Source of the DNA: Raillietiella orientalis | Taxonomy: Eukaryota | Direction of reading: 5' to 3' | NCBI GenBank assembly: GCA_036172245.1 | Contig: JAYWIR010000103.1 | Location: 62,001 to 126,000, forward strand | Length of the DNA stretch: 64,000 nucleotides | Shown: piece by piece, positions 18,681-55,450 of the stretch | How the letters are laid out: every line of letters starts with the position of its first letter | Position numbering within the stretch: position 1 is the first letter of the stretch | The notes under the pieces: model-generated | Databases searched by the model: none | What the model saw: only the letters and a program-made list of their open reading frames with translations | Told to the model about the DNA's origin: nothing | Position numbers and translations under genes: made by a program

Positions 18681-18699
18681 TACAGTACGTTCTGTCGTA

Positions 18700-23360: not shown

Positions 23361-23364
23361 GTTT

Positions 23365-23540
23365 TTCCTTGTGCTGTTTTTGGTGTGGAACATCGTTGGT
23401 GTCCGATGGTAGCGATGCCTGAGGACACCACGATGGAGGTAGGAGTAAGGGAAGTTTGCCCACCCCCACAGCCTACAGAATCAGGGGCGTCCGCCCCGGA
23501 ATCGCCCTCGCCGCTCGAAGCGAGGAGCTGGCGCGCCACT
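23365..23540 (+). other. Short fragment of A 5' UTR / ORF1 start
   Basis: Near identical to about 41500-41660 (ggtgtggaacatcgttggtgtccgatgg...MPEDTTMEVG). Confidence 0.85.
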
Positions 23541-29400: not shown

Positions 29401-29678
29401 ACATGAAGATGGAACTAGAGGGCATCCTGCGAAGGATGGACCCTCCTCTAAGTGGAACGTGATCCCTTCTCCTCCCTCCAAACTCTTTTTGTTTTCCTTT
29501 ATATTTATTTTTAATTTTGTTTTGATCCCTATCCCCCTCCACAGCCGAGGAGCGTCACGCTGGGCTGCGTCCCGGCGTCCCGGCAGGTCCGGTGTTGTGT
29601 GGCCGTTAGTGGGGCCTTGTACTACGTTTTCTTGTAGAGCTTTATACAATAAACGCCCCGGGCGTACCCGGGTGGAAA
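26493..29678 (+). mobile_element. 5'-truncated A-related element (subfamily B): ORF2 pseudogene + 3' UTR
   Basis: Runs from RVASTLSDH through YADD and CERCGKRESLPH to the stop at 29460-29462; several nonsense codons; terminal hairpin 29648-29678. Confidence 0.92.
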
Positions 29679-32294: not shown

Positions 32295-32524
32295 ACGCTC
32301 CGGAATCTTCATTGAAACCCGGGTGCGCCGGGACGTTTATTCTAACGAATAAACTTATACAATCTGTGACTGGACCAGTAGTCCAGCCACGCCCTGGAAA
32401 GATATAGCCTGCCGGGCTACCGGTGCGCAGACCGGCGCGGTCGACCTCGGCAGCAGAGGGGAGGGGGAACGAAACAAAAAGAAAACAAAAAATAAACAAA
32501 AATCAGGGAGGGAGCGGGAAGGAA

Positions 32525-35500
32525 TCACAGTCTGCTGGGAGGGTCCGTCATCCTCTGGAGGATGCCGGCAAGCTGTTTCTGCGTGTGTGGTTCCAGATGG
32601 GGCCATCGCGTCGCCATCCTGAGGAAACGGGCGGCATACACGTTGGCATCCCTGTCGCTTGACCCTCCCGTCGCTTTGCTCCATGCCACGACGATCCCGC
32701 GTAGGCAGCACAGGGCTGCAAGCGAGGCCGCTGGAGGCAGGGCGTCACGGACGAAGAGGGGGCGCAAAGCGTCTCTAGGGTTGCCTCCGGGGATCCCCAG
32801 GGCTGCGGCAAAGCGTTTCCACAAGGGACGGAGGGCAACACAATCCACTAACAGGTGGGGGAGGTATTCCCTCTCCCCTCACCTGACACAATTAGGGTTG
32901 ACACCCCCCCGCGTCCAGTGGTGTCGGCGGGCGTTGCAAGGAAGCCCCCAATGCAACACCATCAGTGCCGACTGTTGCCACTTCATGGGGAGGGTGCGCG
33001 AGTCCATGAGCACCGGAGGCCACTCGAGATGTTCCTCTGGAACATCCAGTAGCTCTCTTCAGCGCAAAAGTCCATTTGGGGTGGTCCTCGGGGTCGCAGC
33101 GTTGGTGAGCTGACCCGTTCTCCAATCCCCGATCTTCTTTTCCCTGCTGGCGATCTTCACAGTTACCTCCCATTGTGCCGCGACGTCGCTGCCCACATGT
33201 TCCCGTAGGGTAGGCAGTACCGCAGCAAGGGAGGTTCTTTGTGCCCACGCTCTCCTTCGGGGATTCTCGATGATTTCTCGGAGCGTGCGGCGGGCATGCG
33301 GCCCGAACAGAGCTATTCGCTCGTGTTGCGGGCTCTGCTCCTGAATCATCGCCCACGTGCGGACGGTTTCCTGCAACCAGGCAGGACCGTTCGCGGGGCG
33401 TACGAGGATCCGCGCCGAGTTGTTCTTCACGAGCTTGGCCGCCCTCCGAAGTTGAAGTCCGCAGTGGCAGATGGGGCTTCCGAGTGCAAAGTAGGACGAG
33501 AGTCCCGCATTGCCGGTGGCCCGCTCGACGAGGAGACGTGCTGGGAGGCACCAAGGGGTGCACCAATTTCCTGCCATAAAGGCAACAACTCGGAACTGGA
33601 GCTGTAGCTCCAGCCGCTCCAACGTCAGGAGGCCCAGACAACCATCCCGACGAGGAGCGCACACGTCGGAAAGACGGACTCGGGGCCTCCCTCTGCCCCA
33701 AAGGGCGATCCTCAGGAGGTCCTTCGTCCTCTTCTAGTCTCTGTGCTGAAGGGGCAAACAAAAAGCAAGGGGCGAGAAGGGGGGGCCGCAAACGCGTTTC
33801 ACGCCGCGGCCCGTTCTGCAGGTAGAACCTGCCGTCCTGGAACAGACCCGATCGCCGCCTCCTGAGCCTTCTGAAGGCAGCCGGACCACGCTTCCGCAGG
33901 GAAGTAATCCCCCAACGGCACACCAAGGTACATGAAGTACCTCACCGTGGGGATCCACAAACGGACCCAGTCCTACTGCCCTGCCCACGCCGCTTCGACT
34001 GGCATTACGGACGACTTCGCCCTGTTCACCGTCAGTCCTGTTCCACGACTCAGCAGGTCGAAGAAGTCCTCGACCGCCGCAGCCGGGGTGGACATAAGCA
34101 GCAGCAGCAGAAGATCGTCCGCGTACGCCGAAACCGCAGGCGTACCGGGGCAATCGAACGGCAGGTGCGCAAGAGTCTCCCTGTACGCTCTCAGCACCAA
34201 TTCGAAAAAGGCGCTAAAGTGCAGGGGGCTCAGGCTGTCTCCCTGCCGTATGCCGCGTCGCAACGGTACTCCGTGCACGGTTTGCCCGCTGAAAAGAACA
34301 TTAATGAGCGCGTCGCGCCAGCTGGAGCGCAGGTAGGCCAACAAAGAGGCCGGGAAGCCCAAGCGTTCTAGAAGCTCCAGCAGGAGATTCTGGTCGACGC
34401 TGTCGAATGCTTTACGCAAGTCGACAGCGACCGCAAGGGCTCCCTTCCCCACCCGACCGTTCCGTCTCCCGCCAACGGACGCACCGGAATTCCGGCTGCT
34501 CAATAAGCCCCTTCCTTGTTGGAGCTCTAACCATGTGGAAGCGTGGAACAGGTTCGCCTCCATGCTCCGCCCGGGAACAGCATAAGTCTGTTCCGGGCTG
34601 ATGAAGATGTTGGCAACCCGTCCCAGACGCTCTGCCCACATCTTGGCTATCAACTTGGCGTCCGCATTCACTATTGTGATGGGACGCCAGTTGTTCATGC
34701 TCCTTAGGTCTCCTCCCTTCGGGAGGAGCCGCACCTTTGCTGAACGAAACGAGGTGGGAACGTCACCTGTTTCACGGATCAGCAAGGTGAGCTGATGTAC
34801 CAGGGGAGTAAGCTCAGCCGCGAAAGTTTGGTAAAACTCCGCGGGCAGGCCGTCCTCCCCTGGAGCCTTCCGCCTCTTGAGCTTTCCGATGGCCGAGAGG
34901 ATCTCGTCCATCGTGAAAGGCTCGTCGAGGCTTCTTTTCTCCTCCTCCCCGATCGCTGGAGCACCTTCCGGAAGGAGAAGTCGTCAGACGTCTCGCTCCG
35001 GAGGCGCCCTGACGTACAGGGTGGAGTAAAATTTTCTCACTATCCCTCGTTTCTGAGCGGGAACCGAGTGCTCCCTGCCATGGTCTTCCAGCAAGCTGGC
35101 CGTCCCGGATTGCCAGGCTTGCCTCTCGGCTCCCGCTCGATACTCTGCTAACCTGCCCATGTCGGGGGTTCTCGCGTAACATCGGGCCTGAAGATAGTGC
35201 CTTTCGTTACGCGGCCCCTCCCCAAATCCCGCAGGTAGGGGATGCAGGGGGAACTGTTCGCAGAACTCCTGGACCGACCGCTTGAAGCGGTCCCAGTCCT
35301 GAAGTGTCTGCATCCTGAAGCTCCGATTAAACGCGCGGAGGTGCTCCGCCGCGTCGGGAAACTTCAGCCAGTCCCCTGGCAGACGCCACGCTGACGAGGG
35401 GGGGCCCTTGTCGCGCGGACGCACTTCGAACATGATCCGACCATGGTCCGACAGCTCGGATGGTACCTTGCCGCGCCTGCCCTCCCGAGAGCATAGGTGC

Positions 35501-36108
35501 TGATCAAGGTACACGTGATCGATGCTGATTTCCATGGCCGTGTCCCCGGCCAACAAGTTGCGCGTGTTCATTTCTGCGCACAACTCGTTGACGCGGTCGT
35601 TCAGTGTATCCGCCGCACCTGAAAGCAGGCGCAGGTTGAAATCACCTGCGATCAGGTGCGCTTTGCGAACTCCTGCATCGGTCAGCCAATTGCGTCTCAG
35701 GGCAAGGTAGAATTCCCTTCTTGCCTTCGCCCTGAACGCGTTATTTCCGCTAGGAGCGTATAGGTTGGTGACGACCAGGTCGATAGAGTCGGACCAGCTG
35801 AGAGTCAGCTGACCGACGCGACCTGCATCATCGAACCGAACGTCCTTTATTGCGGTCTCGATGGCTGGCCGAAGCAGGAAGGCGACACCGCTTGATTTCG
35901 CGGTGCCGCAACGCCACAACAGCCGCCCACCCGAGATCCGTTCGATCTCCCGGGCTTGATCTGCGGAGATTACGTGGATCTCCTTCAGCATCACCAGGTC
36001 GAAGGATGCCAGGGTGGCGGCCACGTCACGCCTCTTGCCGTCGTCGCTTAGCCCGTTCACGTTCCAACAGGCGATCAGAAGACGACGGCGAGAGGCGATT
36101 CCCGGCAT
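32525..36108 (-). pseudogene. ORF2 (APE-RT-CCHC) of C2, several frameshifts/stops
   Basis: ORF pieces 34984-36108, 33973-34911, 33059-33664 and 32525-32848 are colinear with the open C3 frame. Confidence 0.92.
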
Positions 36109-37766
36109 TATGGCTGGGAAAGTGGCGTTGCGGCACCTGCCGCGGGGCAGGTGTACGAAAGGTCCATCGGTACGAGGACCATCGGAACGAGGACGGAGGC
36201 CTCTTCAGGCGCCTGGGGTACCTGTTCGGCCTACATCCTCACCATCCCCTCCGTGTCCGAGCGTGGAATTCTCTCGGGCGACGGGTCCCGGGAGTTTCCC
36301 ACGCTCATGGCACCCTCGCTACCGGAAGCCATCTCTTCCCCTTCGTCGGGGGAAACGATCTTCCGGGGCATTGTGGACTTTCGTCCTGCCTTTTTGCGGG
36401 GTGCCGCGGAGATGGATGCTGTGTTTCCGGCCTTCACCTCGGGGTCGGAATTGGCCGACTCCTGAGGGGAAGCCGGACGCCTGACGGCCTTCTTGCCAGC
36501 CTTGAGGGCAACCGGCTGCAACGAGGCAGCCAGCTCCTCCGCGGCGCGCTCGAAGGCGACGTCATCGAGCGTGGGCTCGATGACGGACGCCGCCGCCTCG
36601 CTCCCCTCCTTGTTGACTTTGTCAACGGAGGGTTGAGCAGGGGCAGCAGCGAGTTCTTTAGCGCCGCATTCGTCGATGGCGGGAATCCGCTCTACAACGA
36701 CGCAGCAGCTTTTAATTTTATCGCGGCGCAGAGCGGTTTCGCTCCGTTTCGCCACGTTCTTTCCCTTCTTATGGGAGTTTTTCTTGGGGTCGACCTTCTG
36801 CCACCCTGGCTCTTGACCCTCGCCCTCGACCTTTTCGGCGTCTTTCGCCGAAGTCTCGGGGCTGGCCTTCGCCTTGGTGGCGGAGGTGACCTCCTTAGCA
36901 GCAGCACGAGCTGCCAGCTTCTTTCTCTTTTTTGCCGCGCGCTTTCTCGCGTTTTTCGCGGACACGACGCGGACTGTGTTTTGGGGGCACACCAGACGGG
37001 TGTGCCCCGCTTGTTTGCATTGCTGGCACTGCACGCTCGGACACCTCATTTTAAGGTGACCAAAGCTGCTGCAGCAGCCGCAAAACTTGGGTTTCCCCAC
37101 GTACCACACGTCAACGGATTCACCGTTGACGGTGAGTTTGTGGGGAATCTCAGATCCCTCGCGAACCGTCACTCGCGCTGCACCCAGGCCGCCAAGCAAC
37201 CCGTCGTGATCGACAAAAGGAGTAGGCTTGCCCCACAGCGCGTGGAGAGTTGCGAATTTTTCCAATTTGTTCCGGACGGCCTCCTTCGTCATCCGGAACG
37301 TGATACCGGTCAGGTGAATGATCACCGACCGGTCTTCTGTTATTGGGAGAAGCCTCCGGCTGCCCATACTTACGGAGGTTCGCAGAAGTCTCTGCGCAAG
37401 AGTTGCCTCCTTGCAGATAACTTCCACAAATTGACCCCCGCTTCTGACGGACATAGCCAGAAGCTCCTCTTTCTGTACGCCGAGAACGCGCATCGCCTGT
37501 GAGAAGGCGCGCGCGTTCTCGGGAGAATATAGACCGCCTACCTTATATATAAGGGGTGGGTTATACCCCTCCTCCAGGTAAGCGCGCATTTCCGCCATAG
37601 CCGCTGGCGTAGGTGCCGCAGCCACGGCGTTCCAAGCCCTGGGTAGGGCCGGGGGCGCATCCGTGCTGGCGGGAGCCTCCACTGATGCGGGAGCCCCCAC
37701 CTCCATCTGCTCCGGGGGCAATAAGGTCATCGCCCCCGGATCCTCACCGGTGGTGGTATCAGGCAT
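36108..37766 (-). pseudogene. ORF1 of C2, premature stop at 36231 and a short duplication near its 3' end
   Basis: 511 aa open with CGCCSSFGHLKMRC and CQQCKQAGHTRLVC; the homologous stop overlaps the ORF2 ATG (TAATG 36110-36106). Confidence 0.9.
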
Positions 37767-37848
37767 TTCTGCCTAATCCTCCACCCACACCACGCACAAG
37801 CACCAACGGAAATGGAACTCAGCAGCAACGAAATAACACGTCCCCTCG

Positions 37849-38516
37849 ACGCTCCGGAATCTCAGGACTGGGACCTTTTTGAATCGGGGTCCGCGAGTTC
37901 TGGGAGCAGTTCCCCCTGGATCGCTTGCCCCCCGGGTTCGGCGAGGGTGCTCGCAACCATCGGGCCTATTTACAGGCTCGTAGGTACGAGTAAACCCCTA
38001 ATGTTCGTCGCCTGGCCGAGTACCGCGCCGTGGCCGAACGCCAAGCCTGGCAATCCGGGTCGGCCAGCTTGCTGGACGACCAGGGCCGGGAATGTTCGTC
38101 CCCGGCGTCGGTACGGCATCTCGTGCGGAGTTTTTATTCCTCCCTTTACGCCAGGGAGCCCCCGGATCGAAACGCCTTTCGACGCTTGCTTCCGGATGGC
38201 ACCCCGGCAATAGGGGAGGAGGAGATGGAAAGCCTCGACGAGCCTTATAACACCGGCGAAATTCTCTCCGGTAACAAAAGGCTCAAGAGGCGTAAAGCTC
38301 CAGGGGAAGACGGCTTGCCCGCGGAGTTCTTTCAGAGCTTCGCGGAAGAGCTGGCACCCCTGCTGCTTAAGTTGATCTGGCTGATCCGAGACGAAGGCGA
38401 TGTTCCCGCCTCGTTTCGGTCAGCCAGAGTGAGGCTCCTTCCGAAAGGGGGAGACCTCAGGAATTTAAAGAACTGGCGTCCGATCACGATCGTTAATACG
38501 GACGCCAAGTTGATAG
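37849..38516 (+). pseudogene. Internal ORF2 segment of an A-type host (A0) bounded by two insertions
   Basis: From TLRNLQDWD to NTDAKLI; near identical to about 55769-56438. Confidence 0.9.
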
Positions 38517-41440
38517 TTGCCACCCGGTCACGCCGGGGCGTTTATTAAAAATTCTCTTTGATTCGTGGTACGAGGTCCCACTACGGCCAACTCAACTGGA
38601 CCTGCCGGGTCGCCGGTACGTAGACCGGCGCGACTCTCCTCGGTAGCGGAAGGGGGTGGGGGAAAAAACAAAAAGAAAAATAAAACATAAAAACAAAAAG
38701 ATTTGGGAGGGCTGGAGAGGGATCACTGACCACTGGGAGGAGAATCCACCCTTCGCAGGATGCCCTCGAGATCGGTCCGTATAATTCCCAGGTGGGGCCA
38801 TCTGGTCACAATCCGCAGGTAGCGGACTGCAAGTACGACGGCATCCCTGTCGTGGCTCGGTCTTCTGACGTTGCTCCAGCACGTCACAATCCCGCGTACG
38901 CAGCAAAGTGCAGCCAGGGTAGCGGCTGGACGCAGGGCATCATGCACGAACAGAAGCCGAAAAACGTCTCTGGGCTGGCTGCCCTCCTGGATCCGTAGGG
39001 AGGCACGAAGACGTTCCCACAGGGGTCGGAGGGCAGCACAATCAACAAGGAGGTGGGGGAGGGTTTCCCGTTCCCCACACCTGATGCAGGTAGGATCTAC
39101 TCGACCCCTGGTCCAGTGGTGGCGGCGTGCGTTGCAGGGTAGACCCCAATGCAACAACAGAAGCGCCGACTCCTGCCACTTCAGGGGGAGGATCCTAGAA
39201 CCAATTAATACCGGGGGCCACTTCAGGTCATCCGGCTGGATGCCGAGTAGCTCGCCCCATCTCTGAAGTCCTCTCGGCTGGACACTAGGGGTACTGGCGT
39301 CCGCCAGTTCACCCGTGGAACAGCCGCTGATCAACTTCTCCTTGCCTGCGATGCGGCAGGAGACTTGCCACCTAGGCTTGCGGCTGCTGGAGAGCGCCCT
39401 CCTCAGGAAGGGCATCGCAGTAGCTAGGGGGGTTGTCTCTGCCCACGTGCTTCTCGCGGGACACTGGAGTATCTTCCGCAGAGTGCAGCGGGAATAGGCG
39501 CCGCGTCGCAGGCAGTTCCATATTTCTTCATTTTTTTCATTAATCTTCGCCCACGTGCCAGCTGTCTCCTCCAGCCATGCGGAGGAGTTGGCGGGGCTGC
39601 ATACCATCCAGCCGTTTTCCTTCGCCAGAGTTGCCATGCGTCCCAGGAGAAGTCCGCATCTCTTGATATTCTTGCCACGGCAGAGAAGATAGGACGCGAG
39701 ACCCTCCGTCCCGGATACACGGCTGGCAAGGAGTCGGGCCGGAACGCACCAAGGGGTGCTCCATAACTTCGCTGCGATGGCGAGGGTTCGGAAGCGCAGC
39801 TGAATCTTTACTCGCTCCATCGTGAAGAGGCCGAGACCGCCATCCCGACGTGGAGCACACAAGTCCTTCAACGGGACTCGGGGCCTCCCTCTTCCCCAAA
39901 GGGCAATTCTCAGGAGGTCCTTCGTCCGTTTTTTCAACTCTCTGGGGACCGAACAAACAAAAGCTGGGGGCGGAGGATAGAAGCCGCGAACGCGTTCCAT
40001 ACCGCGGCCCGTTCCGGAAGGAGAAACTTGTCTTCCATGAACGGGCCGATCGCCGTTTCCACTTTTTGGAGGCAGCCGGACCACGCTTCCGCAGGGGAGT
40101 AGTCCCCCAACGGCACAGCAAGGTACTTCAAGCACCTCGCCGTGCGGATCCCCAAGCGGACCCAGTCCTGCTGCCCTGTCCACGTCGCTCCAACTGGCAA
40201 CACTGACGACTTCGCCCTGTTAACCTGTAATCCGGCCCCACGGCTAAGCAGGTCGAAGAAATCTCCGACCGCCTTCGCCGGGGTGGACATAGGTAAGAGG
40301 AGCAGAAGATCGTCGGCATACGCCGCTACGGCTGGCGTGCCGGGGCACGAGCTCGGCAAGGGGGCCAAAGTCACCCGGTACGCTCTCAGCACCAACTCAG
40401 CGTAGGTGCTAAAAAGCAGGGGGCTGAGGCTGTCGCCCTGCCTTATGCCCCGCCGCACCGGCACGCCATACACCTTTTGTCCACTGAAAGTAATTGAGAT
40501 TATCGCGTTCCGCCAGCAAGAGCGCAGGTAAGAAATCAAGGAGGGTGGGAAGCCCATGCGACCCAGGAGCTCCAAGAGGAGTTCCTGGTCAACACAGTCG
40601 AATGCCTTATGGAGGTCGACTGCGATCGCTAAGGCCCCCTTTCCCGCATGAGGGTCCCTACCCTGTCCCACTGGCGGCCCCAAAGTAGGGTTACAAATTT
40701 TCCCTTTCCCTTCTTTATTACTCCGCTGCGCGTGCATCCATGTGCTCGCGAAGAAGAGGTTGTCCTCCATACTTCGCCCGGAAACAGCGTATGTCTGCTC
40801 CGGGCTAATTATGGAATTGGACACCTGCCCCAATCGCGACGCCCACATCCCGACAATCAACTTGGCGTCCGTGTTCACAATCGTGATCGGACGCCAGTTG
40901 CAAAGTTTCCTGAGGTCTCCTCCCTTCGGGAGGAGCCTCACCCTGGCTGACCGAAACGAGGCGGGAACATCGCCTTCGTCCCGGATTCGCCTTGTCAACT
41001 CGAGCACCAGGGGGGCCAGCTCTTCCGCGAAACTCTGAAAGAACTCCGCAGGCAAGCCGTCCTCCCCTGGCGCCTTACGCCTCTTCAGCCTTTTGATACC
41101 GGCGAGAATTTCACCGGTCGTGAAAGGCTCGTCGAGGCTTTCTCTCTCCTCCTCCCCTATCGCCACGGAACCACTCATGAGCAATCGCCGCGAGGCGTCT
41201 TGTTCCGGTGGTGTTTTGGCGTAAAGGGAGGAATAAAAACAATGCACGAGATTCCGTACCGCAGACAGGGACGAACGTTCCCGGCCCATGTCATCCAGCA
41301 TGCTGGCTGACCCGGATTGCCAGGCTTGTTGCTCGGCTCCGGCGCGGTATTCGGCCAGGCGACGGACATTGGGGTTCCTCTCGTGACGACGCGCGTGCAA
41401 ATACGCGCGTTCGTTGCGAGCCCTCCGCCGAATCCCTTGG
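38517..41440 (-). mobile_element. A-related subfamily E, 3' part (ORF2 41440-38723, frameshift near 39965) + 3' UTR; interrupted by the A1-A3 array
   Basis: RT motifs including YADD; CIRCGERETLPH; terminal hairpin 38517-38546. Confidence 0.92.
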
Positions 41441-41531
41441 CGAGTGGACGTGTTTTTCCTTCGCTCCCGAGTGAGTCGACAGGAAGCGGTTTTTTCTATT
41501 GTTGTTTGGTGTGGAACATCGTTGGTGTCCG

Positions 41532-43285
41532 ATGGCAGCGATGCCTGAGGACACCACGATGGAGGTAGGTGTGGGGGAGGCTTGCCCACCCCCACAGCCT
41601 ACAGAATCAGGGGCGTCCGCCCCGGAATCGCCCTCGCCGCTCAAGGCGAGGAGCTGGAGCGCCATGGTGGCCGCGCCTAGCGCGGAAACCATGGCCGAGA
41701 TGGCGGCCTACCGGGCAGCTGGGTACAAGCCCAGCTTGGTTTACCAGGTAGGCAATCTCTTTGACGGGCGAACTGCACGCGCTTTTTCGAAAGCGCTGCA
41801 GAACGCCAACGTGTTGGAAAAGGACCTTGACGGTCTATCCGTGCTAAGCGGGGGTCAGCGCGTTGAGGTTGTCTGCAAGGACATCACCTTGGCGCAAAGC
41901 TTGATAACCACCCCGCTGAACGTGGACGGACGCAAGATCCTACCAGTCACGATGGACCGCTCCGTAGTGGTCCATCTGACAGGGATCACCAGCCGCATGA
42001 CGCGGTCTGCGGTTGGTGATCAGTTAAGAAAGTACGGAGATGTTCACGCGCTTTGGCCAAAGGCCACAATCTTCGATGGCTACGATAGCCTTTTCGGAGG
42101 GCAGGCCGCCGCGCGCGTGACGGTGAAAGAGAGTGGGCTTCCCCACAAACTAGAGGTCAATGGCGAAGTCGTAGACCTCTGGTACGTGGGGAAACCCCGC
42201 TTTTGTGGCTACTGCAATGCAGTAGGACACTTGCGCAAGCGGTGCCCGAACATTGTGTGCCACTTATGCGGGGAGAAGGGCCACGTACGCCGCGTATGCC
42301 CTAAACGCCCCACTCCGGTGCCGCCTGCTGCACAAAAAGCACAGGCAAAACGCGGTAAACTGGTCGAAAGACCAAAAAGAGATACTGGCCGGCAGCAGCC
42401 GCTAGCCCCTGTTCCTCCCACACAGGCGTCGGAAGAAAAACCCTCCGAAGACGCGGGAGTCCAAGACGGCTGGCAGCTGGTCCAGGCCAGGAAGGAGAAA
42501 AAGGTGCACCCCGCGGAACCCGCGAAAGCGGTAAAAAAGACAGCCGGCAAGGCGAAAAAACCTGGGCCGCGCTCTAAGACCATGCGGGAATGTACGGTAG
42601 CACTGGAGCGTATAGCCGTTCCCGAGATTGCCACCCGGGGCGACGAGCCTTCCCTCGCCGTTTCCGCCGCGCCTGAGGTTCGCGACGACGAACCCTCTGT
42701 TTACACAGAGGGTGAGCCGCGCGATGCGCCGGTCGACACTGCGGACGCCGCGTTCGCAAAGGCGGCGGAGGAGCTCGCGGCCACGCTGGCGGAGCGTGAG
42801 AACCCCTCACGCAAGGCCGTGCGAAGGCCGGCTCCCGCGAAAAAGGCCCCCACAGGTGAGTCGGACCTGGGGGCCGGAAGTGCATCCTCCTCCTCGGAGG
42901 CACCCCCAGGAAGTCGGGACGCAAGTCCCAGAAACCCAGGAGGCGCCTCCCCTCCACCAGCGAGGAGGAGAAGCAGGAAGGTAGCGGTAGCGTGGGAATC
43001 CCGGAGGGGGAACTCCCACGCTCGGAAGCCGTCGAGCTGGCCACCCCCATGGAGGAGGGTGAGCAGGGGGGCGAAGTCCTCCCTGCAGTCGCCGAGCCTG
43101 AACAGCCCGCCCCCATGGAGGAGGGCCAACAGGTAGGCGCGACCCCACTTAAGGGTGACCCCCTCGACGCGCCGTTACCCATGGAGGAGGGGGACCAGGT
43201 GCACGCAGCGCCTGACCCTCCTCCTCCAGCTAGCGTCCCGCCCCAACAGGTGGCGGACGCCGCATCGCCATCTTCCCAGGAATAA
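41532..43285 (+). pseudogene. ORF1 of A1, one frameshift in a C run near 42905
   Basis: CGYCNAVGHLRKRC, CHLCGEKGHVRRVC; tail continues in ORF 42992-43285; could be a homopolymer sequencing error. Confidence 0.88.
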
Positions 43286-46200
43286 CACCTGGGCTCGCCA
43301 GTCGCCGTCGGATTCGCGCCGCCTGTTGGAACGTCAACGGGCTGCGCGACGACGGTAACAGGCGAGATACGGCCGACACCCTGCGTGAGCTCGACCTGGC
43401 CCTGCTGCAGGAGATCCACGTGATCACCGCGGCAGACGCCCAGGAGATCAAGACGATCGCGGGGGGTCGGCTGTATTGGCGGTGCGGCCTCCGCAACACC
43501 TGCGGGGTCGCGTTCTTCGTGAAGCCGGCCATCGACGCGGCCGTGAAGGGCGTGCGCTTCGATGACGACGGTCGGGTCGGTCAGCTGATTCTCAGCTGGT
43601 CCGACTCGATCGAAGTGATCGTCACGAATGTGTACGCCCCCAGCGGTAAACAGGGATACAGCGACCGTACCAGGCTGCTGGATTCCCTGAAGCGCGACTG
43701 GCTGGCGGACACGAACGTGCGGAAGGCTCACCTGATAGCGGGAGATTTCAATCTCCGTCTGCTAACAGGTGAGCCAGAAACACAAGAGAACGCGATGAAC
43801 GAGTTGTGCGACGCCATGCGTGCGCGCAACTTGTTCGCGGGTGAGAGGGGAATGGTCCGCAGCATCGACCACGTCTTCCTCGACGCTGACCTGTGTTCAC
43901 GGGTCGGCAAACGGGGGAGGGTTGCGTCGACGTTGTCCGAACATTCCCGGTTAATTTTCAAGATGCGGCCTCGAGACAAGGGACCGCCATCCAGGGATTG
44001 GCGTCTGCCGGGGGACTGGATGCGACTCTCAGGTGCGAAGGAATACCTTCGCGAATACCTGAGAGGTGTCACGCTCCGGATTCTCCAGGACTGGGACCTT
44101 TTTAAGGAATCGGTCCCCGAGTTCTGTGAGCAGTTCCCCCTGGATCGCCTGCCCCCCGGATTCAAAGAGGGTGCTCGCAACCATCGGGCCTATTTACAGG
44201 CTCGTAGGTACGAGAGAACCCCTAATGTCCGTCGCCTGGCCGAGTACCGCGCCGGGGCCGAACGCCAAGCCTGGCAATCCGGGTCGGCCAGCTTGCTGGA
44301 CGACCAGGGCCGGGAATGTTCGTCCCCGGCGTCAATACGGCATCTCGTGCGGAGTTTCTATTCCTCCCTTTACGCCAGGCAGCCCCCGGATCGAAACGCC
44401 TCTCGGCGCTTGCTTCCGGATGGCGCCCCGGCAATAGGGGAGGAGGAGATGGAAAGCCTCGACGAGCCTTTTACCACCGGCGAAATTCTCGCCGGTATCA
44501 AAACGCTCAAGAGGCGTAAAGCTCCAGGGGAAGACGGCTTGCCCGCGGAGTTCTTTCAGAGCTTCGCGGAAGAGCTGGCACCCCTGCTGCTTAAGTTGAT
44601 CAGGCTGATCCGAGACGAAGGCGATGTTCCCGCCTCGTTTCGGTCAGCCAGAGTGAGTCTCCTGCCGAAAGGGGGAGACCTCAGGGATTTAAAGAACTGG
44701 CGTCCGATCACGATCGTGAATACGGACGCCAAGTTGATCGCAGGGCTATGGGCTTCGCGTCTGGGGCAGGTGGCAGAATCCGTAATTACCCCGGAGAAGA
44801 CTTATGCTGTTCCCGGGCGAAGTATGGATGCCAACCTCTTCTTCGCAAGCACATGGGTGCACCTGCAGAGAAGAGAGAAGAAAGGGATAGGGAAAGTCGG
44901 CAACCCCACATTGGGGCCGCCAGCCGGGCTGGGAAGGGACCCCCGGGCGGGGAAGGGGGCCCTAGCGCTCGCAGTCGATCTCCACAAAGCGTTCGACTGT
45001 GTAGACCAGTAACTTCTCTTGGAGCTCCTGGGTCGCATGGGCTTTCCACCCTCCCTGATTTCCTACCTGCGCTCTTGCTGGCGGAATGCGATAATTACCG
45101 TCTCTTTCAGCGGTCAAAAGGTGTATGGCGTGCCGGTGCGGCGGGGCATAAGGCAGGGAGATAGCCTCAGCCCCCTGCTCTTCAGCACCTACTTTGAGTT
45201 GGTGCTGAGAGCGTACAGGGTGACTTTGGCCCCATTGCCGAGCTCGTGCCCCGGCACGCCCGCCGTAGCAGCGTACGCCGCCGATCTTCTGCTCTTGTTG
45301 CCAATGTCCACCGCGGCAAAGGCGGTCGGAGACTTCTTCGATCTGCTCAGCCGCGGGACCGGACTGCAGGTTAACAGGGTGAAGTCGTCGGTTGTGCCAA
45401 TAGGTGCGGCGTGGGTAGGGCAGCAGGACTGGGTCCGTCTGGGGATTTCCACGGCGAGGTGCTTCAAGTACCTCGGTGTGCCGTTGGGAGACTACTCTCC
45501 TGCGTAAGCGTGCTCCAGCTGCCTCCAAAAAGTCGAGACGGCGATCGGCCCGTTCCTGGGAGGCAAGTTTCACTTGCCGGAACGGGCCGCGGTGTGGAAC
45601 GCCTTCGCGACCCCCATCCTCCGCCCCTTGCTTTTTGTTTGCCCCCTCCCACCGTGGAATCGAAGAAGAGGACCTCCTCCGTATCGCCCTTTGGTGCAAG
45701 GGGAGGCCCCGAGTCCTTCTGAAGGACTTGTGCGCTCCGCGTCGGGACGGCGATCTTGGCCTCCTGACGCTGGAGCGCGTGTAGAAGCAGCAGCGGTGGC
45801 GAACCCTCGCCATCGCAGCGAAGATGTGGAGCACCCCTTGGTGCACCCCGGCACGCCTCCTGGCCAGCCGTGTGTCCCGGTGCGATGGACTCGCGTCTTT
45901 TCTTCTGAGTCGTGGCCGGAAGATGCGAGGTTGCGGCCTACTGCTTGGGCGCATGGCAACATTGGCCAAGGAGAACAGCTGGATAGTTTGCTGCCCCGCC
46001 AACTACCCCGCCTGGCTGGAGGAGAATATTGGAACGTGGGCAGCGGTTAACCAGAGGAGCCACGAAACGTGGAATCGTCTCCGATGCAGCCCCTACGCCC
46101 GCTGCACGCTGCGGAATCTCCTGGAGAGTTCAGCAAGATGCACGTGGGCAGAGACGACCTGCCTAGCTACGGCGCTACCCTTCCTAAGGAGGGCACTTCA

Positions 46201-46876
46201 CAGCACCCGGACGCCAAGGTGGCAAGTCTCCTGCTGCATCGAGGGACAGGAGAAGTTGATCAGCGGCTGGACAACAGGAGAACTGGCCGACGCCTCGACC
46301 CCGAGCGTCCAGCCGCGAGGATTATTAAGATGGGGCGAGCTGCTCGCCATCCCCAGGGATGAGCTGAAGTGGCCCCCGGTGATGAAGGAATCCAGGATCC
46401 TGCCCCTCAAGTGGCAAGAGTCGGCGTTGCTTTTGTTGCACTGGGGTCTACCCTGCAACGCGCGCCGCATCCACTGGACGAGGGGAGCTGTGGATCCTGC
46501 GTGTGCCAGGTGCGGGGAGCGGGAGTCGCTTCCCCACCTTATTGTGGATTGTGCTGCCCTCCGACCCCTTTGGGAACGGTTCGGGACGACCCTCGGGCTC
46601 CCTACGGGCAGCACCCCCAGAGACGTTATTCGGCCCCTCTTCGTGAAGGACGCACTGCAGCCAGCCGCAGCCATCGCAGCCTTGTGCTGCGTCCGTGGCA
46701 TCGTGTCGGCATGGAGCGACGCCAACAACGAAGGAGTGGGTCCACAGGCGAGGGATGTCATCCCGTATGCCAAACGCTTCTTGCGAAGAGCTGCCGGATG
46801 GCCCCAACTGGGGAATATGCAGGCTGACCTCGAGGGCTTCGTTCGACGGATGGGCCCTTCCCACAGCGACCAGTGA
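43285..46876 (+). pseudogene. ORF2 of A1, nonsense codons and YADD mutated to YAAD
   Basis: Pieces 43420-45012, 45019-45507, 45824-46876. Confidence 0.92.
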
Positions 46877-47193
46877 TCCCTTCCCTGCCCTCCAACTTCT
46901 TTTTGTTTGTTTCTTTTTATTTTACTTTTTGTCTCATCCCCATCCCCCTTTGCTGTCGGGGAGTGCCACGCCGGGCTGCGTCCCGGTGTCCCGACAGGTC
47001 CTGTGTTTACGACCGTGGTGGGGCCTTGTACCACGCATGTAAAGTTTATCAATAAACGCCCCGGGCGTACCCGGGTGGCAACGCCGAATAACCGCTGTGG
47101 AGAGCGGACGTGCTTTTCCTGCGCTCCGCCTGCGTGGCAAAGCGAGTGTTTTTTCTTCTTAAGTGATTTGTGCGTGCACATCGTCGGTGTCCG

Positions 47194-49068
47194 ATGGCAG
47201 CGTTGCCAGAGGACACCGCGATGGAAGTAGGCGTGATGGAGGCTTGTTCGTCCCCACAGCCTACTGGATCAGGGGCATCCGCCCCGGAATCGTCCCCGGC
47301 GACGCCGAGGTCCTGGAGCGCCATGGTGGCCGCGCCTAGCGTGGAAGCCATGGCCCAGATGGAAGCCTACAAGAAAGCGGGGTATAAACCCTCGCTAGTC
47401 TACAAGGTAGGCAACCTTTTCGATGGGCGAACTGCACGCGCCTTTACGAAGGCGCTGCAGGACGCCAATATTTTTGAAAAAGATCTCGACGACCTCTGCG
47501 TTCTCCGCGGCGGGCAGCGGGTCGAGGTGGTATGCAAGGATATCACCTTGGCCCGACACCTGATCACCGACCCGCTGATCGTTGATGGTCGGAAGATCTT
47601 GCCGATAACGATGGACCGCTCGGTGGTGGTCCATCTCACTGGGATCTCCAGTCGCATGACGAGGTCAGCGGTTCGAGAACAGCTTCAAAAGCACGGAGAA
47701 GTGCACGCGTTGTGGCCGAAGTCCACGATTTTCCAAGGCTACAATAGCCTTTTCGGAGGTCAAGCTGCGGCGCGTATCACGGTAAAAGAGGGTGGTGCGC
47801 TTCCCCATAAGCTGGAGGTCTGCCAAGAAGCGGTGGACCTCTGGTACGTGGGAAAACGCCAATTTTGTGGCTACTGCAATGCAGTAGGGCATCTACGAAA
47901 AAGGTGCCCGAACATTGTGTGCCACCTATGCGGCGAAAAGGGTCACGTTCGGCGCGTGTGCCCCAAGCGCCCCACCCCGGTGACCCCTGCCGCCAAAAAG
48001 GCGCAGGGAAAACGTGGAAAGCTGGTAGAAAGACCAGCTCGCGAAAATGGCCGTTCCCAACTGCCAGCCTCCCTTCCTCCCGTACAGACGTCGGAGGAAA
48101 TAGCTCCCGTGGACGCGGGAATGGAGGAGGGTTGGCAGCTGGTTCAGGCCAGAAAAGAGAAAAAAAAGAAAGTGATGATAGAAGAAAATTCGGAGAAGAA
48201 AACTGCCGGCAACAAGAAAAAAGCCGCGCCGCTTTCAAAAAAAAAACTCCACGAATGCTCGGTAGCACTGGAACGCTTAGCCGTTCCTCCCGAGTCCGCC
48301 CGCGGCAATGTTCGCGGAACAGCTGATGCGGACGCGATGAATACTCGCGTGGACGAGCCCAATCTACGTGTAGAGGGTGAGACGCGAGACTCGCGCGCCG
48401 ACAGCCAGGACGCCGCGCTCGATAAAGTCGCGGAGGAGCCCGCGGCAACGTTCGCCGTCAACGATGACGCCGCGCTCGATAAGGTCGCGGAGCAGCCCGC
48501 GGCAACGGTCGCCGCTGGCGAAGACGCGGCCTTCGAGAAAGCGGCGGAGGAGCTCGCAGCAACGCTCGCCGAGCGCGAAACCCCGTCGCGCAAGGGCGTA
48601 CGCAGGTCGGCTCCGACGAAGAAGGCCCCCGCAGGTGAGTGCGACCTGGGGGCCGGAAGCGGATCCTCCTCCTCGGAGGCACCCCCCAGGAAGTCGGGAC
48701 GCAAGTCCCAGAAACCCAGGAGGCGCCTCCCCTCCACCAGCGAGGAGGAGAAACCGGAAGGAAGCAGCAGCGTGGGAATCCCGGAGGGGGAATACCCACG
48801 CCCGGAAACCGTCGAGTCGGCCACCCCCATGGAGGAGGGAGAGCAGCGGGGTGAAGTCCTCCCTGCAGTCGCGAAACCTGAGCAGCCCGAACCCATGGAG
48901 GAAGGCGAACAGGTAGGCGCGACTCCACGTGCGGGTGATCCGGCCGACGCGCCGGCACCGATGGAGGAGGAGGAAAAGGTGCCTTCAGTACCTGTCCCTC
49001 CTCCCCCTCCACCTAGCGTCCCGTCCCAGCAGGTGGCGGAGGCCGCATCGCCGTTTTCCCTGGACTAA
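47194..49068 (+). CDS. ORF1 of A2, open frame of 624 aa
   Basis: MAALPEDTAMEV; two CCHC knuckles; 57-bp internal repeats. Confidence 0.9.
   Translation: MAALPEDTAMEVGVMEACSSPQPTGSGASAPESSPATPRSWSAMVAAPSVEAMAQMEAYKKAGYKPSLVYKVGNLFDGRTARAFTKALQDANIFEKDLDDLCVLRGGQRVEVVCKDITLARHLITDPLIVDGRKILPITMDRSVVVHLTGISSRMTRSAVREQLQKHGEVHALWPKSTIFQGYNSLFGGQAAARITVKEGGALPHKLEVCQEAVDLWYVGKRQFCGYCNAVGHLRKRCPNIVCHLCGEKGHVRRVCPKRPTPVTPAAKKAQGKRGKLVERPARENGRSQLPASLPPVQTSEEIAPVDAGMEEGWQLVQARKEKKKKVMIEENSEKKTAGNKKKAAPLSKKKLHECSVALERLAVPPESARGNVRGTADADAMNTRVDEPNLRVEGETRDSRADSQDAALDKVAEEPAATFAVNDDAALDKVAEQPAATVAAGEDAAFEKAAEELAATLAERETPSRKGVRRSAPTKKAPAGECDLGAGSGSSSSEAPPRKSGRKSQKPRRRLPSTSEEEKPEGSSSVGIPEGEYPRPETVESATPMEEGEQRGEVLPAVAKPEQPEPMEEGEQVGATPRAGDPADAPAPMEEEEKVPSVPVPPPPPPSVPSQQVAEAASPFSLD
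48409..48570 (+). repeat. Three 57-bp coding tandem repeats in A2 ORF1
   Basis: Units start at 48409, 48466 and 48523 (DAALDKVAEEPAAT / DAALDKVAEQPAAT / DAAFEKAAEELAAT). Confidence 0.9.
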
Positions 49069-49534
49069 CACCTGGGCTCGCCAGTCGCCGTCGGATTCGC
49101 GCGGCCTGTTGGAACGTCAACGGGCTGCGCGACGACGGCAACAGGCGAGATACAGCCGACACCCTGCGTGAGCTCGACCTGGCGCTGCTGCAGGAGATCC
49201 ACGTGATCACCGCGGCAGACGCCCAGGAAATCGAGACGATCGCGGGGGTCGGCTGTATTGGCGATGCGGCCTCCGCAACACCTGCGGGGTCGCGTTCTTC
49301 GTGAAGCCGGCCATCGACGCTGCCGTAAAGGGCGTGCGGTTTGATGACGACGGTCGGATCGGTCAGCTGATTCTCAGCTGGTCCGACTCGATCGACCTAA
49401 TCGTCACAAACGTGTATGGCCCCAGCGGCAAACAGGGTTACCGCGACCGCACCAGGCTGCTGGAAACCCTGAAGCGCGACTGGCTGGCGGATACCAATGT
49501 GCGAAAGGCTCACCTGATAGCGGGAGATTTCAAT
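49068..49534 (+). pseudogene. ORF2 5' segment (APE) of A2
   Basis: CWNVNGL...IAGDFN; 1-nt loss in a G run near 49245. Confidence 0.88.
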
Positions 49535-49613
49535 CGAGTGCGGACGTGTTTTTCTTCGCTCTCGTCTCCGTGCTTTCATCCGCTTCATCTTGGCGTCGTA
49601 CATTTTGACGACG

Positions 49614-54500: not shown

Positions 54501-55129
54501 GAAGAACCAAACTCCTTGGCACCTGGAAGACAAGTGAGTTGGCGGACGCCGCCACTCCTCGTGTTACTGCATAGGGACTCCTCCGGTGGGCAGAAGAACT
54601 TGCTGTCACCCCCGAAGAACTTGTAGTCCCTCCACAGTGTATGGACAGTTCGCTGCTCCCCCTTGCTTGGAAACAAGCCGTGCTGCTTTTCGTTCACTGG
54701 GGTTTTCAGTGCAACGAGCGTTGGCATCGTGACTCGGGGGGACTTGCGTCTGCGAACTGCGTTCGGTGCGGATCGACGGAGTCGATTCCGCACCTACTTC
54801 TGGACTGCGGTGTCCTACAAGGACTGTGGCGTAGGCTGGCAACGGCACTATTGCATCCCGTGGACACCGCAAGAGACTTGCTGCGACGATTCTTCACGCC
54901 GAGCGGGCTTTCACTAAGCGCAAGGATTGCAACCATCGGTTGCATACGCGCGATAGTTTCCGTCCGCCAGGCGTTGGTAATCAACGGACAGCACCAAGAG
55001 GTAATCAGCAAAGCATCCTTCTACATAGGAGCATCCGCTAGATGGCCTCATTTGACAGAGGAGACAAAGAGGAATCTCGCCGCAATACACCGCCGGTTTA
55101 CACACCCTCATCAGCGGCCAACCCGGTGA
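51536..55129 (+). pseudogene. ORF2 of D, single frame of about 1197 codons with two in-frame stops (52607, 54572)
   Basis: Pieces starting at 51536, 52826 and 54641 share one frame; APE, RT (YADD) and CVRC..H...C motifs present. Confidence 0.93.
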
Positions 55130-55450
55130 TCATTGCCCTACCCTCCATAAACTAAATTTGGATTTTCTTTTTACACCCGCGTCCCCATAGGCTCCGAAAC
55201 ATTTCAGGTGCTCATCGTATAAATCCCCGTGAGTACGGAGCCTAACCAAAAACCCGTTAATCTTCCCTCCAGTTTTTGATTTTTGTTTGTTTCCCCTCAT
55301 TCCCCCGACGCTGCGAGCGGTTTGTTTACCAGGCCTGCGTGCCGGTAATTTTTCAATGTTCTCTGTCGTTCTGTTGGTTAAGGACATTGTCCCTGACCAG
55401 TTTATTATTATTAATAAACGCCCCGGCGTGACCGGGTGATAAATTTCAAT

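What the first reader, a model, noticed from the sequence alone, without database searches (positions are those of the whole stretch)
41426..41450. A-type target: antisense insertion after the first base following the GFG codons, in different hosts
Four 3' junctions fall on the same homologous base of host sense GRA TTY GGN G|: 20580/20581 (gaa ttc ggt g), 29678/29679 (gga ttt ggg g), 47081/47082 and 58781/58782 (ttc ggc g). The 15-mer CGCCGAATCCCTTGG precedes A1 (41426-41440) and recurs between A2 and A3 (58782-58796), which fits a 15-bp TSD. Both inserters (A5, B, A1, A2) and hosts differ in sequence, which argues for independent events.
Basis: seen in the sequence. Interest (0 to 1): 0.8.

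Follow-up and report, generated by a model that had tools for sequence, protein, structure and literature searches.

The report
LINEs that insert into other LINEs
One lineage of L1-like jumping genes in this repeat cluster repeatedly landed, backwards, at exactly the same base inside the protein-coding region of other jumping genes, which suggests how such element-only clusters can build themselves.

Summary
The window is a dense nest of L1-like LINEs from a eukaryote. ORF1 carries a CCHC knuckle and ORF2 has APE endonuclease, RT and a weak zf-RVT match. There is no poly(A); every family ends in AATAAACG, a short CCCGG/CCGGG hairpin, TG or TT, and 4 nt.

All 4 of 4 A/B-type 3' ends abut C[ACG]CC[GA]AAT. 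That is the antisense of GRA-TTY-GGN-G in the EN-RT linker motif LPxGFG|EG (site S1). Three different host elements (Host1, Host2, E) are cut at this same alignment column. The E-specific 15-mer CGCCGAATCCCTTGG flanks A1 and separates A2 from A3, as a target-site duplication reused in a head-to-tail array.

The inserters differ in 5' truncation and diverged under purifying selection (dN/dS 0.22-0.40), so the events are independent.

New here: a second lineage (C, G, Host2) does the same 80 bp upstream at ACGCTCCGGAATCTYCA| (site S2), antisense, with a 17-bp duplication, inside A-type copies.

Best reading: sequence-specific target-primed reverse transcription into conserved LINE codons, reciprocal between lineages.

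No genome or outside sequence could be used, so genome-wide specificity is untested. One A-type copy (el1) has a non-S1 5' flank.

The parts
41426..41440 (+). Left copy of the 15-bp target-site duplication T1 (CGCCGAATCCCTTGG). It is continuous with host E and is the antisense of E's ..AAG GGA TTC GGC G.
38517..41425 (-). Host E, 3' part (homologous to A1 positions about 2733-5641, about 80% identical). It is cut at S1 by the A array. Its own 3' end (38517) sits antisense in an A-type fragment at the RT motif NTDAKLI.
41441..47081 (+). A1, a full-length A-type LINE. It starts CGAGTGGACGTG, has ORF1 at 41499-43136 and a frameshifted ORF2, and ends ..CCCGGGTGGCAA.
47082..47099 (+). A1|A2 spacer: the first 8 nt of T1 (CGCCGAAT, 47082-47089) followed by about 10 nt of filler (AACCGCTGTG) before the A2 5' end.
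47100..58781 (+). A2, an A-type LINE in two pieces (about 47100-49534 and 55443-58781), interrupted by element D. Its ORF2 3' part at 55436-58576 is open (1046 aa). It carries intact S2 (55769-55785) and intact S1 (55856-55865).
49535..55442 (+). D, a full-length distant LINE inserted in sense orientation into A2 at the GDFN codons of the endonuclease. The 8-bp duplication ATTTCAAT lies at 49527-49534 and 55443-55450.
58782..58796 (+). Second copy of T1, lying between the A2 3' end and the A3 5' end.
58797..61441 (+). A3, an A-type LINE with a full 5' end. It is cut at S2 (..ACGCTCCGGAATCTCCA|) by G.
61442..64000 (-). G, a C-family LINE (97% identical to C). Its 3' end ..CCCGGGTTTCAA abuts S2 of A3 in antisense. 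It runs off the window.
17482..20580 (+). Host1, a LINE of a separate family (ORF1 plus EN, about 72% identical to A1). It is cut at S1 (..CGG GAA TTC GGT G|) and holds a small older antisense 3' fragment (f18, 3' end at 18033).
20581..23538 (-). A5, an A-type LINE 5'-truncated at A1 position 2861 (20581-23360), with its 3' end at S1 of Host1. An inverted A-type 5' piece (23359-23538, A1 positions 47-224) is attached to it.
26495..29678 (+). B, a relative of the A type (80% identical) with the A-type hairpin, 5'-truncated at A1 position 2474. Its 3' end sits at S1 of Host2.
29679..32294 (-). Host2, a C-family LINE (94% identical to C) with a full 5' end (CGAGCGGACGTG at 32294). It is cut at S1 (..GCG GGA TTT GGG G|) by B.
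32295..32311 (-). 17-bp S2 target copy T2 (TGAAGATTCCGGAGCGT), lying between the C 3' end and the Host2 5' end.
32312..37848 (-). C, a full-length C-family LINE. Its 5' end abuts S2 of the A-type fragment. It carries an intact S1 at 35220.
37849..38516 (+). A-type fragment (95% identical to A1). It starts exactly at S2 (ACGCTCCGGAATCT..) and ends at the E insertion point. It is the host of both the C/Host2 array and E.
1..4973 (-). el1, an A-type LINE (84% identical) with intact S1 (2249) and S2 (2329). Its 5' end abuts the ORF1 of el2 in sense orientation, which is not an S1 flank.

Best explanation
The A/B lineage of these L1-like LINEs is sequence-specific. It integrates by target-primed reverse transcription into the ORF2 of other LINE copies, in antisense orientation.

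The first nick falls on the host's sense strand between G and A of 5'-GG(A/G)TT(C/T)GGNG^AGGG-3'. These are the codons for the conserved linker motif LPxGFG|EG, about 70 residues after the endonuclease domain. The freed 3'-OH primes cDNA synthesis at the very end of the element RNA (AAUAAACG, CCCGG/CCGGG hairpin, UG, 4 nt), with no poly(A) copied. The second-strand nick falls 15 bp away and produces the duplication CGCCGAATCCCTTGG.

A duplication copy remains a target, so later insertions stack head to tail (A1, A2, A3) with the target between them.

A second lineage (C, G, Host2) works the same way at ACGCTCCGGAATCTYCA^, with a 17-bp duplication, inside A-type copies. The two lineages therefore insert into each other, and a LINE-only cluster grows.

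Shown: the junctions, the shared host column, the orientation, the duplications, and the independence of the events.

Inferred: that the element's APE endonuclease supplies the specificity, the order of the nicks, the role of the hairpin, and specificity outside this window.
For: - Element type: ORF1 has zf-CCHC, ORF2 has Exo_endo_phos and RVT_1. The closest solved protein is human LINE-1 ORF2p, E 1.9e-42.
- Eleven 3' ends share AATAAACG-hairpin-GGGT(G/T)+4 nt, and eight 5' ends share ..GGACGTG, so element ends are defined to the base.
- A/B lineage: 4 of 4 A-hairpin 3' ends are followed by C[ACG]CC[GA]AAT. Flank identity within the group is 6-8 of 10, against 1-6 of 10 to other families.
- Three hosts of different families end in the same alignment column.
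- The flanks carry each host's own variant: GGTG, GGGG (as in its 94% relative C) and GGCG. They are therefore host DNA, not element DNA.
- The 15-mer is exact at both places and carries the E-specific tail CCCTTGG.
- C/G lineage: 2 of 2 3' ends are followed by TG(A/G)AGATTCCGGAGCGT. The A-type fragment begins, and A3 ends, at that same site. The C|Host2 spacer is the 17-mer.
- Independence: different 5' truncation points and dN/dS of 0.22-0.40 among A1, A2, A3, A5, el1, B and E.
- Chance: P about 8e-9 for three hosts sharing one base and orientation.
- APE-type LINEs with sequence-specific endonucleases are established in the R1 and Tx1 clades, and their targets include transposons (PMC4640811, passages read).
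Against: - All evidence comes from one 64-kb window. No genome is held and no related DNA was found elsewhere.
- Only one S1 event (the array in E) shows a duplication. A5 and B have 5' sides that do not continue into their hosts, so two of the three events rest on the 3' junction alone.
- The right end of the A array and E's 5' half lie outside the window.
- The A1|A2 spacer keeps only 8 of the 15 nt, plus filler.
- el1, an A-type copy, has a 5' flank inside el2's ORF1 in sense orientation. Specificity is therefore either not absolute or the 5' side was rearranged.
- Intact S1 sites persist in el1, A2 and C. Only 3 of 10 copies that reach the column are occupied.
- No biochemical or structural evidence ties the specificity to the endonuclease.
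Confidence: 0.78

Rival explanations
1. The targeting is real, but the specificity is set by the RNA and not by the endonuclease. Transcripts that read through into the downstream CGCCGAAT.. flank, or the 3' hairpin type itself, would anneal to or select the nicked target, as proposed for some rDNA- and telomere-specific LINEs. The endonuclease would then be only loosely specific.
For: Target class follows 3' hairpin type in this window. The A-type hairpin goes with S1 in 4 of 4 cases, including B, whose ORF2 is as far from A (dS 0.56) as E's. E has another hairpin and another target. The C/G hairpin goes with S2 in 2 of 2 cases. E and D share a hairpin, and their flanks share 6 of 10 bases despite ORF2 identity of only 67%.
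Against: AATAAA lies about 25 nt before every element end, so transcripts probably end at the element end and not in the flank (inference). The 4-nt tails (GCAA, ATAA, GAAA, TTAG) show no complementarity to the target. The 6-of-10 match between E and D is about what one expects once among 55 pairs. The endonuclease parts of B and E are missing from the window, so the endonuclease and the hairpin cannot be separated here.
Confidence: 0.12
2. The shared junctions descend from one or two ancient insertions that were later copied as host-plus-insert blocks by segmental duplication or unequal crossing-over. On this view the A1-A2-A3 array is an amplified tandem unit and not a series of repeated insertions.
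For: The region is highly rearranged. A5 and B lack interpretable 5' junctions. Two array junctions share an identical 15-mer. Recombination in such arrays is described for other LINE arrays (Cnl1 preprint 10.1101/2021.08.11.455996, passages read).
Against: Hosts are 68% identical (Host1 vs Host2) and belong to different families. Inserters have different 5' truncation points (2861, 2474, full length). The differences between inserters are mostly synonymous (dN/dS 0.22-0.40), which is not the pattern of neutral decay after duplication. A1 and A3 differ at dS 0.50 in ORF1. The same pattern is repeated by a second family at a second site.
Confidence: 0.05
3. Insertion is directed to a region, for example centromeric chromatin or a structural hotspot, and the coincidences at one base reflect a local DNA-structure preference and not sequence recognition.
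For: LINE-only nested clusters are known at algal centromeres (PMC8226300 and PMC3446292, passages read). Nine of the 11 resolved insertions here are antisense to the host (for the binomial value 0.033; orientations).
Against: Regional targeting does not predict base-exact, orientation-exact reuse at two different sites by two different lineages. The other families in the same cluster land at other positions.
Confidence: 0.05

Closest known systems
Zepp / Zepp-like (ZeppL) L1 LINEs of green algae (Coccomyxa, Chlamydomonas)
   Same: These are L1-type LINEs found almost only in clusters of nested copies. [quoted passage not shown] Zepp elements are about 61% GC and stand out from the surrounding genome (PMC3446292, passage read). 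The LINEs here are about 58-63% GC, next to a 42-48% GC stretch.
   Different: The passages I could read give no base-level target, no orientation rule and no inter-lineage reciprocity. Zepp arrays are described as mostly 3' ends produced by 5' truncation, whereas eight elements here have complete 5' ends. I recall that Zepp carries poly(A), but I could not check this because Higashiyama 1997 is not held. These elements end in hairpin + 4 nt. The ORF1 of the Coccomyxa L1 is reported to match HTH_1 (PMC5203782), whereas ORF1 here has zf-CCHC. Phylogenetic placement with Zepp was not tested.
Sequence-specific APE-type LINEs of the R1 and Tx1 clades (R1 in 28S rDNA; Tx1, Keno and others)
   Same: They have an APE-like endonuclease, base-exact insertion into a multicopy target in fixed orientation, target duplications and occasional tandem insertions. 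Known targets include transposons (PMC4640811, passages read). Endonuclease-determined specificity was shown for R1Bm (PMC1919474, abstract seen in the listing).
   Different: Here the target is a conserved coding motif of the ORF2 of related LINEs, including close relatives of the inserter. At least two lineages target each other. Clade membership was not tested. The nearest solved protein is human L1 ORF2p.
Telomere-associated LINE arrays (Cnl1 of Cryptococcus, MoTeR of Magnaporthe)
   Same: Non-LTR elements that pile up in long arrays of their own copies (preprint 10.1101/2021.08.11.455996, passages read).
   Different: Cnl1 is described as preferring G+C-rich sites, with duplications of 0-12 bp and insertions into many genes (same passages). 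No fixed base within an ORF is described there.

Membership tests
APE-type (L1-like) non-LTR retrotransposon | ORF2 with an APE-like endonuclease followed by a reverse transcriptase | tested here: met
   Exo_endo_phos: 47.2 bits in D, 28.4 in el1, 24.6 in A1 (cut-off 24.5). RVT_1: 68-83 bits (cut-off 29.6). Best PDB matches are the L1 endonuclease and L1 ORF2p at E 1.9e-42.
APE-type (L1-like) non-LTR retrotransposon | ORF1 with a nucleic-acid-binding CCHC knuckle | tested here: met
   zf-CCHC scores 23.9 and 23.2 bits (cut-off 20.8) in the ORF1 of A1 and A2. The ORF1 of A3 and el1 score below the cut-off.
APE-type (L1-like) non-LTR retrotransposon | C-terminal zinc-binding domain (zf-RVT) | tested here: inconclusive
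   zf-RVT scores 18.4 and 20.5 bits, below the 27.5 cut-off.
APE-type (L1-like) non-LTR retrotransposon | 3' poly(A) tail | tested here: not met
   All 11 3' ends stop 4 nt after the hairpin (NNAA or TTAG) and run directly into target DNA.
APE-type (L1-like) non-LTR retrotransposon | Target-site duplications and 5' truncation | tested here: met
   Duplications of 15 bp (A array), 17 bp (C/Host2) and 8 bp (D). 5'-truncated copies: A5, B, el3, el4.
Sequence-specific LINE (as in the R1 and Tx1 clades) | Independent insertions at the same base and orientation of a repeated target | tested here: met
   S1: three hosts of different families. S2: two hosts. Independence is supported.
Sequence-specific LINE (as in the R1 and Tx1 clades) | Copies absent or rare outside the target, genome-wide | not testable with these tools
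   No genome is held. Within the window, one A-type copy (el1) has a non-S1 5' flank.
Sequence-specific LINE (as in the R1 and Tx1 clades) | The endonuclease nicks the target sequence specifically | not testable with these tools
   This needs a biochemical assay.
Sequence-specific LINE (as in the R1 and Tx1 clades) | RT phylogeny places it in the R1 or Tx1 clade | not tested
   No reference set was available. Named database relatives are only 23-27% identical, for example a fish LIN1.
Zepp / ZeppL | Nested clusters formed by insertion into existing copies | tested here: met
   The whole 64-kb window is nested LINEs.
Zepp / ZeppL | RT/EN phylogeny groups it with Zepp | not tested
No algal protein appeared among the 17 hits.
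Zepp / ZeppL | One cluster per chromosome, centromeric | not testable with these tools
   No genome is held.

The most novel reading that the evidence does not exclude
The cluster is built by a guild of co-resident L1-like lineages. Each lineage is specific for a different short, conserved coding motif in the ORF2 of the others: GFG|EG for A/B, TLRNLQ|DW for C/G, and possibly the RT motif NTDAKLI for E and the endonuclease motif GDFN for D. These lineages hyperparasitise one another. The sequence code alone, with no chromatin cue, then makes LINE-only clusters of the Zepp or centromere type assemble and grow. Variants at the site in some A/B copies (GFKEG in A1, GFWEG in B) could be target-escape alleles.
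Probability: 0.35. Interest if true: 0.85.

Novelty: new variant of a known kind. Interest (0 to 1): 0.7.

Why it matters
Site-specific LINEs are known for rDNA, snRNA genes, microsatellites, telomeres and one DNA transposon. LINE-only nested clusters are known at algal centromeres. How such clusters are targeted has been left open or attributed to chromatin.

Here the junctions indicate a plain sequence rule. One lineage nicks a conserved codon block in other LINEs' ORF2, and another lineage does the same to the first. This would give three things:

- A testable molecular mechanism for self-assembling retrotransposon clusters.
- A case of retrotransposons disabling competitors while using them as a safe landing site.
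- Two compact APE-type elements with defined 15-17-bp targets, which could be assayed as programmable or site-specific insertion tools.

Tried and rejected
- Public reads: one run (X1) held 47% of the sampled words. Laying three runs on 55443-61000 placed 257 short contigs from X1 and none from X2 or X3. Only 2 joints were listed, both small skips near 57.7 kb. Six loose ends were shown and 144 were not. This gave no test of S1 or S2 usage. One 300-nt contig ends at 55785, the S2 nick position, but a contig end in a repeat carries no weight.
None had any tblastn match to ORF1 or ORF2, and their flanks were unrelated. These were chance matches in bacterial contigs.
- The same idea in viral contigs gave 0 matches. 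In GTDB genomes it gave 2 loci, both unrelated.
- Protein search: there were 17 hits. Only one was close (66% identity, an unnamed metagenome protein); the rest were at most 28% identical. The ESM Atlas gave generic RT clusters only. The organism was not identified.
- Rfam returned 0 matches.
- Earlier findings of the scan: nothing in 4 look-ups.
- Hairpin covariation: the stem is invariant apart from C-to-T decay in f18. Fold z-scores of the last 80 nt were -0.31, -5.71, +1.28 and -3.41. The hairpin is therefore conserved in sequence, and its structure is not proven.
- TSDs for A5 and B: the DNA beyond their 5' ends is not the expected host remainder.
- A CCCCAAAT match at 26498, next to B's 5' end, was examined. 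It lies inside Y's own coding sequence, which is homologous to D, and I treat it as coincidence.
- Literature: five full-text searches and passages from eight papers turned up no description of a LINE with a base-exact target in another LINE's ORF2. The two primary Zepp papers (Higashiyama 1997, Yamamoto 2003) are not held, so they may contain relevant junction data that I could not see.
Full report
**What the window is**

The 64-kb window is almost entirely nested copies of L1-like non-LTR retrotransposons.
- ORF1 products carry a CCHC knuckle. ORF2 products carry an APE-type endonuclease (Exo_endo_phos), RVT_1 and weak zf-RVT matches.
- The nearest solved proteins are the human L1 endonuclease and L1 ORF2p, the latter at E 1.9e-42.
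- The only close database relative is one unnamed metagenome protein at 66% identity. Named relatives are 23-27% identical.
- G+C is 58-64% over the LINEs, with a 42-48% stretch at about 12-18 kb.
- No genome is held for this window, and the scan holds no earlier notes on it.

**Element ends are defined to the base**

A pattern search found 10 distinct 3' ends. A looser pattern added one more (f18, 18033) and one match inside D's RT ORF at 54177. I dropped that match because it has no hairpin and lies in coding sequence.

All 11 retained ends read AATAAACG, a CCCGG...CCGGG hairpin, T(G/T), and 4 nt (GCAA, ATAA, GAAA, TTAG, TCAA, AAAA, ACAA). They then run straight into foreign DNA with no poly(A). 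Eight copies have a complete 5' end of the form CGAG(N)GGACGTG, and a ninth (X) has a decayed version.

The small terminal hairpin appears in all four minimum-energy folds that I ran. The stem does not vary, so there is no covariation evidence. Fold z-scores of the last 80 nt range from +1.28 to -5.71.

**The observation**

- The 15-mer CGCCGAATCCCTTGG is present exactly twice, at 41426-41440 and 58782-58796.
- The A-type hairpin CCGGGCGTACCCGGG is present four times. All four copies are followed by TG, 4 nt, then C[ACG]CC[GA]AAT. The junctions are at 20580/81, 29678/79, 47081/82 and 58781/82.
- Using A1 (41441-47081) as a ruler and aligning every copy across the region, Host1 ends ..CGG GAA TTC GGT G|, Host2 ends ..GCG GGA TTT GGG G|, and the E-side duplication reads ..AAG GGA TTC GGC G|. 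All three fall in one column.
- In A2's open ORF2 this column is the first base of codon 144, after G141-F142-G143.
- At protein level it is the conserved linker motif LPxGFG|EG, about 70 residues after the endonuclease domain.

I call this site S1.

**Is it more than chance, and are the events independent?**

The 8-mer pattern occurs 14 times in 128,000 strand positions. Eight of these are S1-related: 4 junction flanks, the left duplication copy, and intact sites in el1, C and A2. Three hosts sharing one base and one orientation has P about 8e-9 under uniform insertion. Even allowing any triple among 11 events, the expectation is about 1e-6.

The hosts are different elements:
- Host1 is about 72% identical to A1.
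- Host2 belongs to the C family (94% to C).
- E is about 80% identical to A1.

The flanks carry each host's own spelling, so they are host DNA and not part of the inserter.

The inserters differ too. A5 is truncated at A1 position 2861, B at 2474, and A1 and A3 are full length. Their pairwise differences are mainly synonymous: dN/dS is 0.31 (A2 vs A1), 0.40 (A5), 0.38 (el1), 0.25 (B), 0.26 (E), and 0.22-0.24 in ORF1. They therefore diverged as active lineages before landing.

The 47081 and 58781 junctions are array-internal, so I count three independent hosts, not four.

**The duplication**

- A1's 5' end (CGAGTGGACGTG) follows the 15-mer, which is continuous with E's sequence.
- A2's 3' end (..GGGTGATAA) is followed by the same 15-mer and then by A3's 5' end.
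- The tail ..CCCTTGG is E's own. Other copies read ..CCGGAGG..CCCGCAGG or ..TCCCGAGG. The spacer is therefore a copy of E's target, as a 15-bp target-site duplication reused by a later insertion.
- The A1|A2 spacer keeps only CGCCGAAT plus about 10 nt of filler, an imprecise 5' join.
- The far end of the array lies beyond the window.

**A second lineage with a second site (new here)**

C and G (97% identical) and Host2 (94% to C) form another family.
- G's 3' end (..GGGTTTCAA) abuts TGGAGATTCCGGAGCGTGAC.., the antisense of A3's ..GTC ACG CTC CGG AAT CTC CA|.
- C's 3' end is followed by TGAAGATTCCGGAGCGT (17 nt) and then directly by Host2's complete 5' end.
- C's own 5' end abuts an A-type fragment that begins exactly at ACGCTCCGGAATCT (37849).

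This is site S2, 80 bp upstream of S1, at the codons for TLRNLQ|DW. Two A-type hosts are hit in antisense, with a 17-bp duplication and a head-to-tail array. The architecture is the same as at S1.

C-family copies do not carry the S2 sequence themselves. A-type copies A2 and el1 do carry an intact S1, while A1 (GGATTCAAAG) and B (GGATTTTGGG) differ there. A/B elements insert into a C-family copy (Host2), and C-family elements insert into A-type copies, so the targeting is reciprocal.

**Other insertions in the window**

Each of these was seen once, so no specificity can be claimed.
- E sits antisense in the A-type fragment at ..AAT ACG GAC GCC AAG TTG ATA G|. This is an RT-motif block conserved in 10 copies at up to 3 mismatches.
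- D sits in sense orientation in A2 at the GDFN codons, with an 8-bp duplication.
- el4 sits antisense near the endonuclease N-terminus of a D-like copy.
- el3 and el2 are head to tail with a 23-nt spacer found nowhere else in the window.

By my reading, 9 of the 11 resolved insertions are antisense to their host (binomial 0.033).

**Evidence against, and loose ends**

- el1, an A-type copy, has a 5' flank that is el2's ORF1 in sense orientation, not S1. Its 3' end is outside the window.
- Beyond the 5' ends of A5 and B the DNA is not the expected remainder of Host1 or Host2.
  - A5 carries an inverted A-type 5' piece (23359-23538) and then abuts X.
  - B is preceded on the same strand by Y, a fragment of another family whose coding sequence runs up to the junction.
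  - These junctions could reflect twin priming, template switching or target deletions. That is inference.
- Only 3 of the 10 copies that reach the S1 column are occupied.

**Mechanism**

The anatomy fits target-primed reverse transcription by a stringent-type LINE.
1. A first nick falls on the host-sense strand at GGNG^AG.
2. cDNA synthesis is primed at the exact RNA end. The AATAAA lies about 25 nt upstream of that end, which suggests it is the cleavage site, and the conserved hairpin is a plausible RT recognition element.
3. A second nick falls 15 bp away (17 bp for the C family).
4. Full-length copying continues to a defined 5' end.

Reuse of a duplication copy explains the arrays. That the APE endonuclease supplies the specificity is inferred by analogy with the R1 and Tx1 clades (PMC4640811, passages read; PMC1919474, abstract seen in the listing). 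An RNA-guided contribution cannot be excluded, because target class also follows hairpin type here.

**Comparison with what is known**

- It also resembles sequence-specific APE LINEs.
- Telomeric arrays such as Cnl1 show only a G+C-rich preference and variable duplications (preprint 10.1101/2021.08.11.455996, passages read).
- In five searches and in the passages read, I found no base-exact, antisense, inter-lineage targeting of LINE ORF2 codons.
- The primary Zepp papers are not held and might contain junction data.

I therefore rate this a new variant of a known kind.

**Verdict**

Confidence that A/B elements are site-specific for S1 is about 0.78. The decisive test is a genome-wide census of 3' flanks and of broken ORF2 copies. 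All attempts to reach outside sequence failed.

Noticed in passing
window 49527-49534 and 55443-55450 (element D, 49535-55442): A full-length distant LINE (D) is inserted in sense orientation into A2, exactly at the GDFN catalytic-motif codons of the endonuclease, with an 8-bp duplication ATTTCAAT.
   Followed up: partly
window 38495-38517: E's 3' end abuts, in antisense, the RT-motif codons AAT ACG GAC GCC AAG TTG ATA G (NTDAKLI). This block is conserved at DNA level in 10 copies at up to 3 mismatches. E and D share one hairpin variant (CCCCGGCGTGACCGGG), and their flanks share 6 of 10 bases.
   Followed up: partly
window 6361-6383: el3 and el2 lie head to tail, separated by a 23-nt spacer (TCGAGAGCCTTGCGTGCTCCAGG on the minus strand) that matches nothing else in the window. 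It may be a third reused target whose host is not visible.
   Followed up: partly
window 23359-23538: An inverted A-type 5' piece (A1 positions 47-224, 92% identical) is joined to the 5'-truncated end of A5. The structure looks like twin priming.
   Followed up: no
window 25882-26494 / 26495: Fragment Y (another family, ORF2 residues about 301-505) is joined on the same strand to the 5'-truncated start of B. This may be a template-switch chimera. X (minus strand, 5' end about 25881) abuts Y in antisense.
   Followed up: partly
window about 10950-18600: An A+T-richer stretch (42-48% G+C) holds only badly decayed LINE fragments (27-52% protein identity). In the f18 3' end the hairpin CCCGG/CCGGG has become CTTGG/TTGGG, i.e. 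C-to-T decay. This suggests deamination of older copies.
   Followed up: no
window 44166-44175 (A1) and 26747-26756 (B), approximate: At the S1 column A1 reads GGATTCAAAG (GFKEG) and B reads GGATTTTGGG (GFWEG), whereas A2, el1, C and the hosts keep GFGEG. These could be target-escape variants.
   Followed up: no
window 41499-43136 vs 58855-60484: ORF1 of A1 and A3 differ at dS 0.50, while A3 is 96% identical to A2 in the 343-bp endonuclease overlap. ORF1 of A2 is also divergent (81% identity, 632 aa). The lineages look mosaic or recombinant.
   Followed up: no
all elements, e.g. window 41441-41456: All families, even at 65-70% overall identity, share the 5' terminal motif CGAG(N)GGACGTGT and the 3' terminal AATAAACG-hairpin. 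This suggests common transcription-start and RT-recognition signals.
   Followed up: partly
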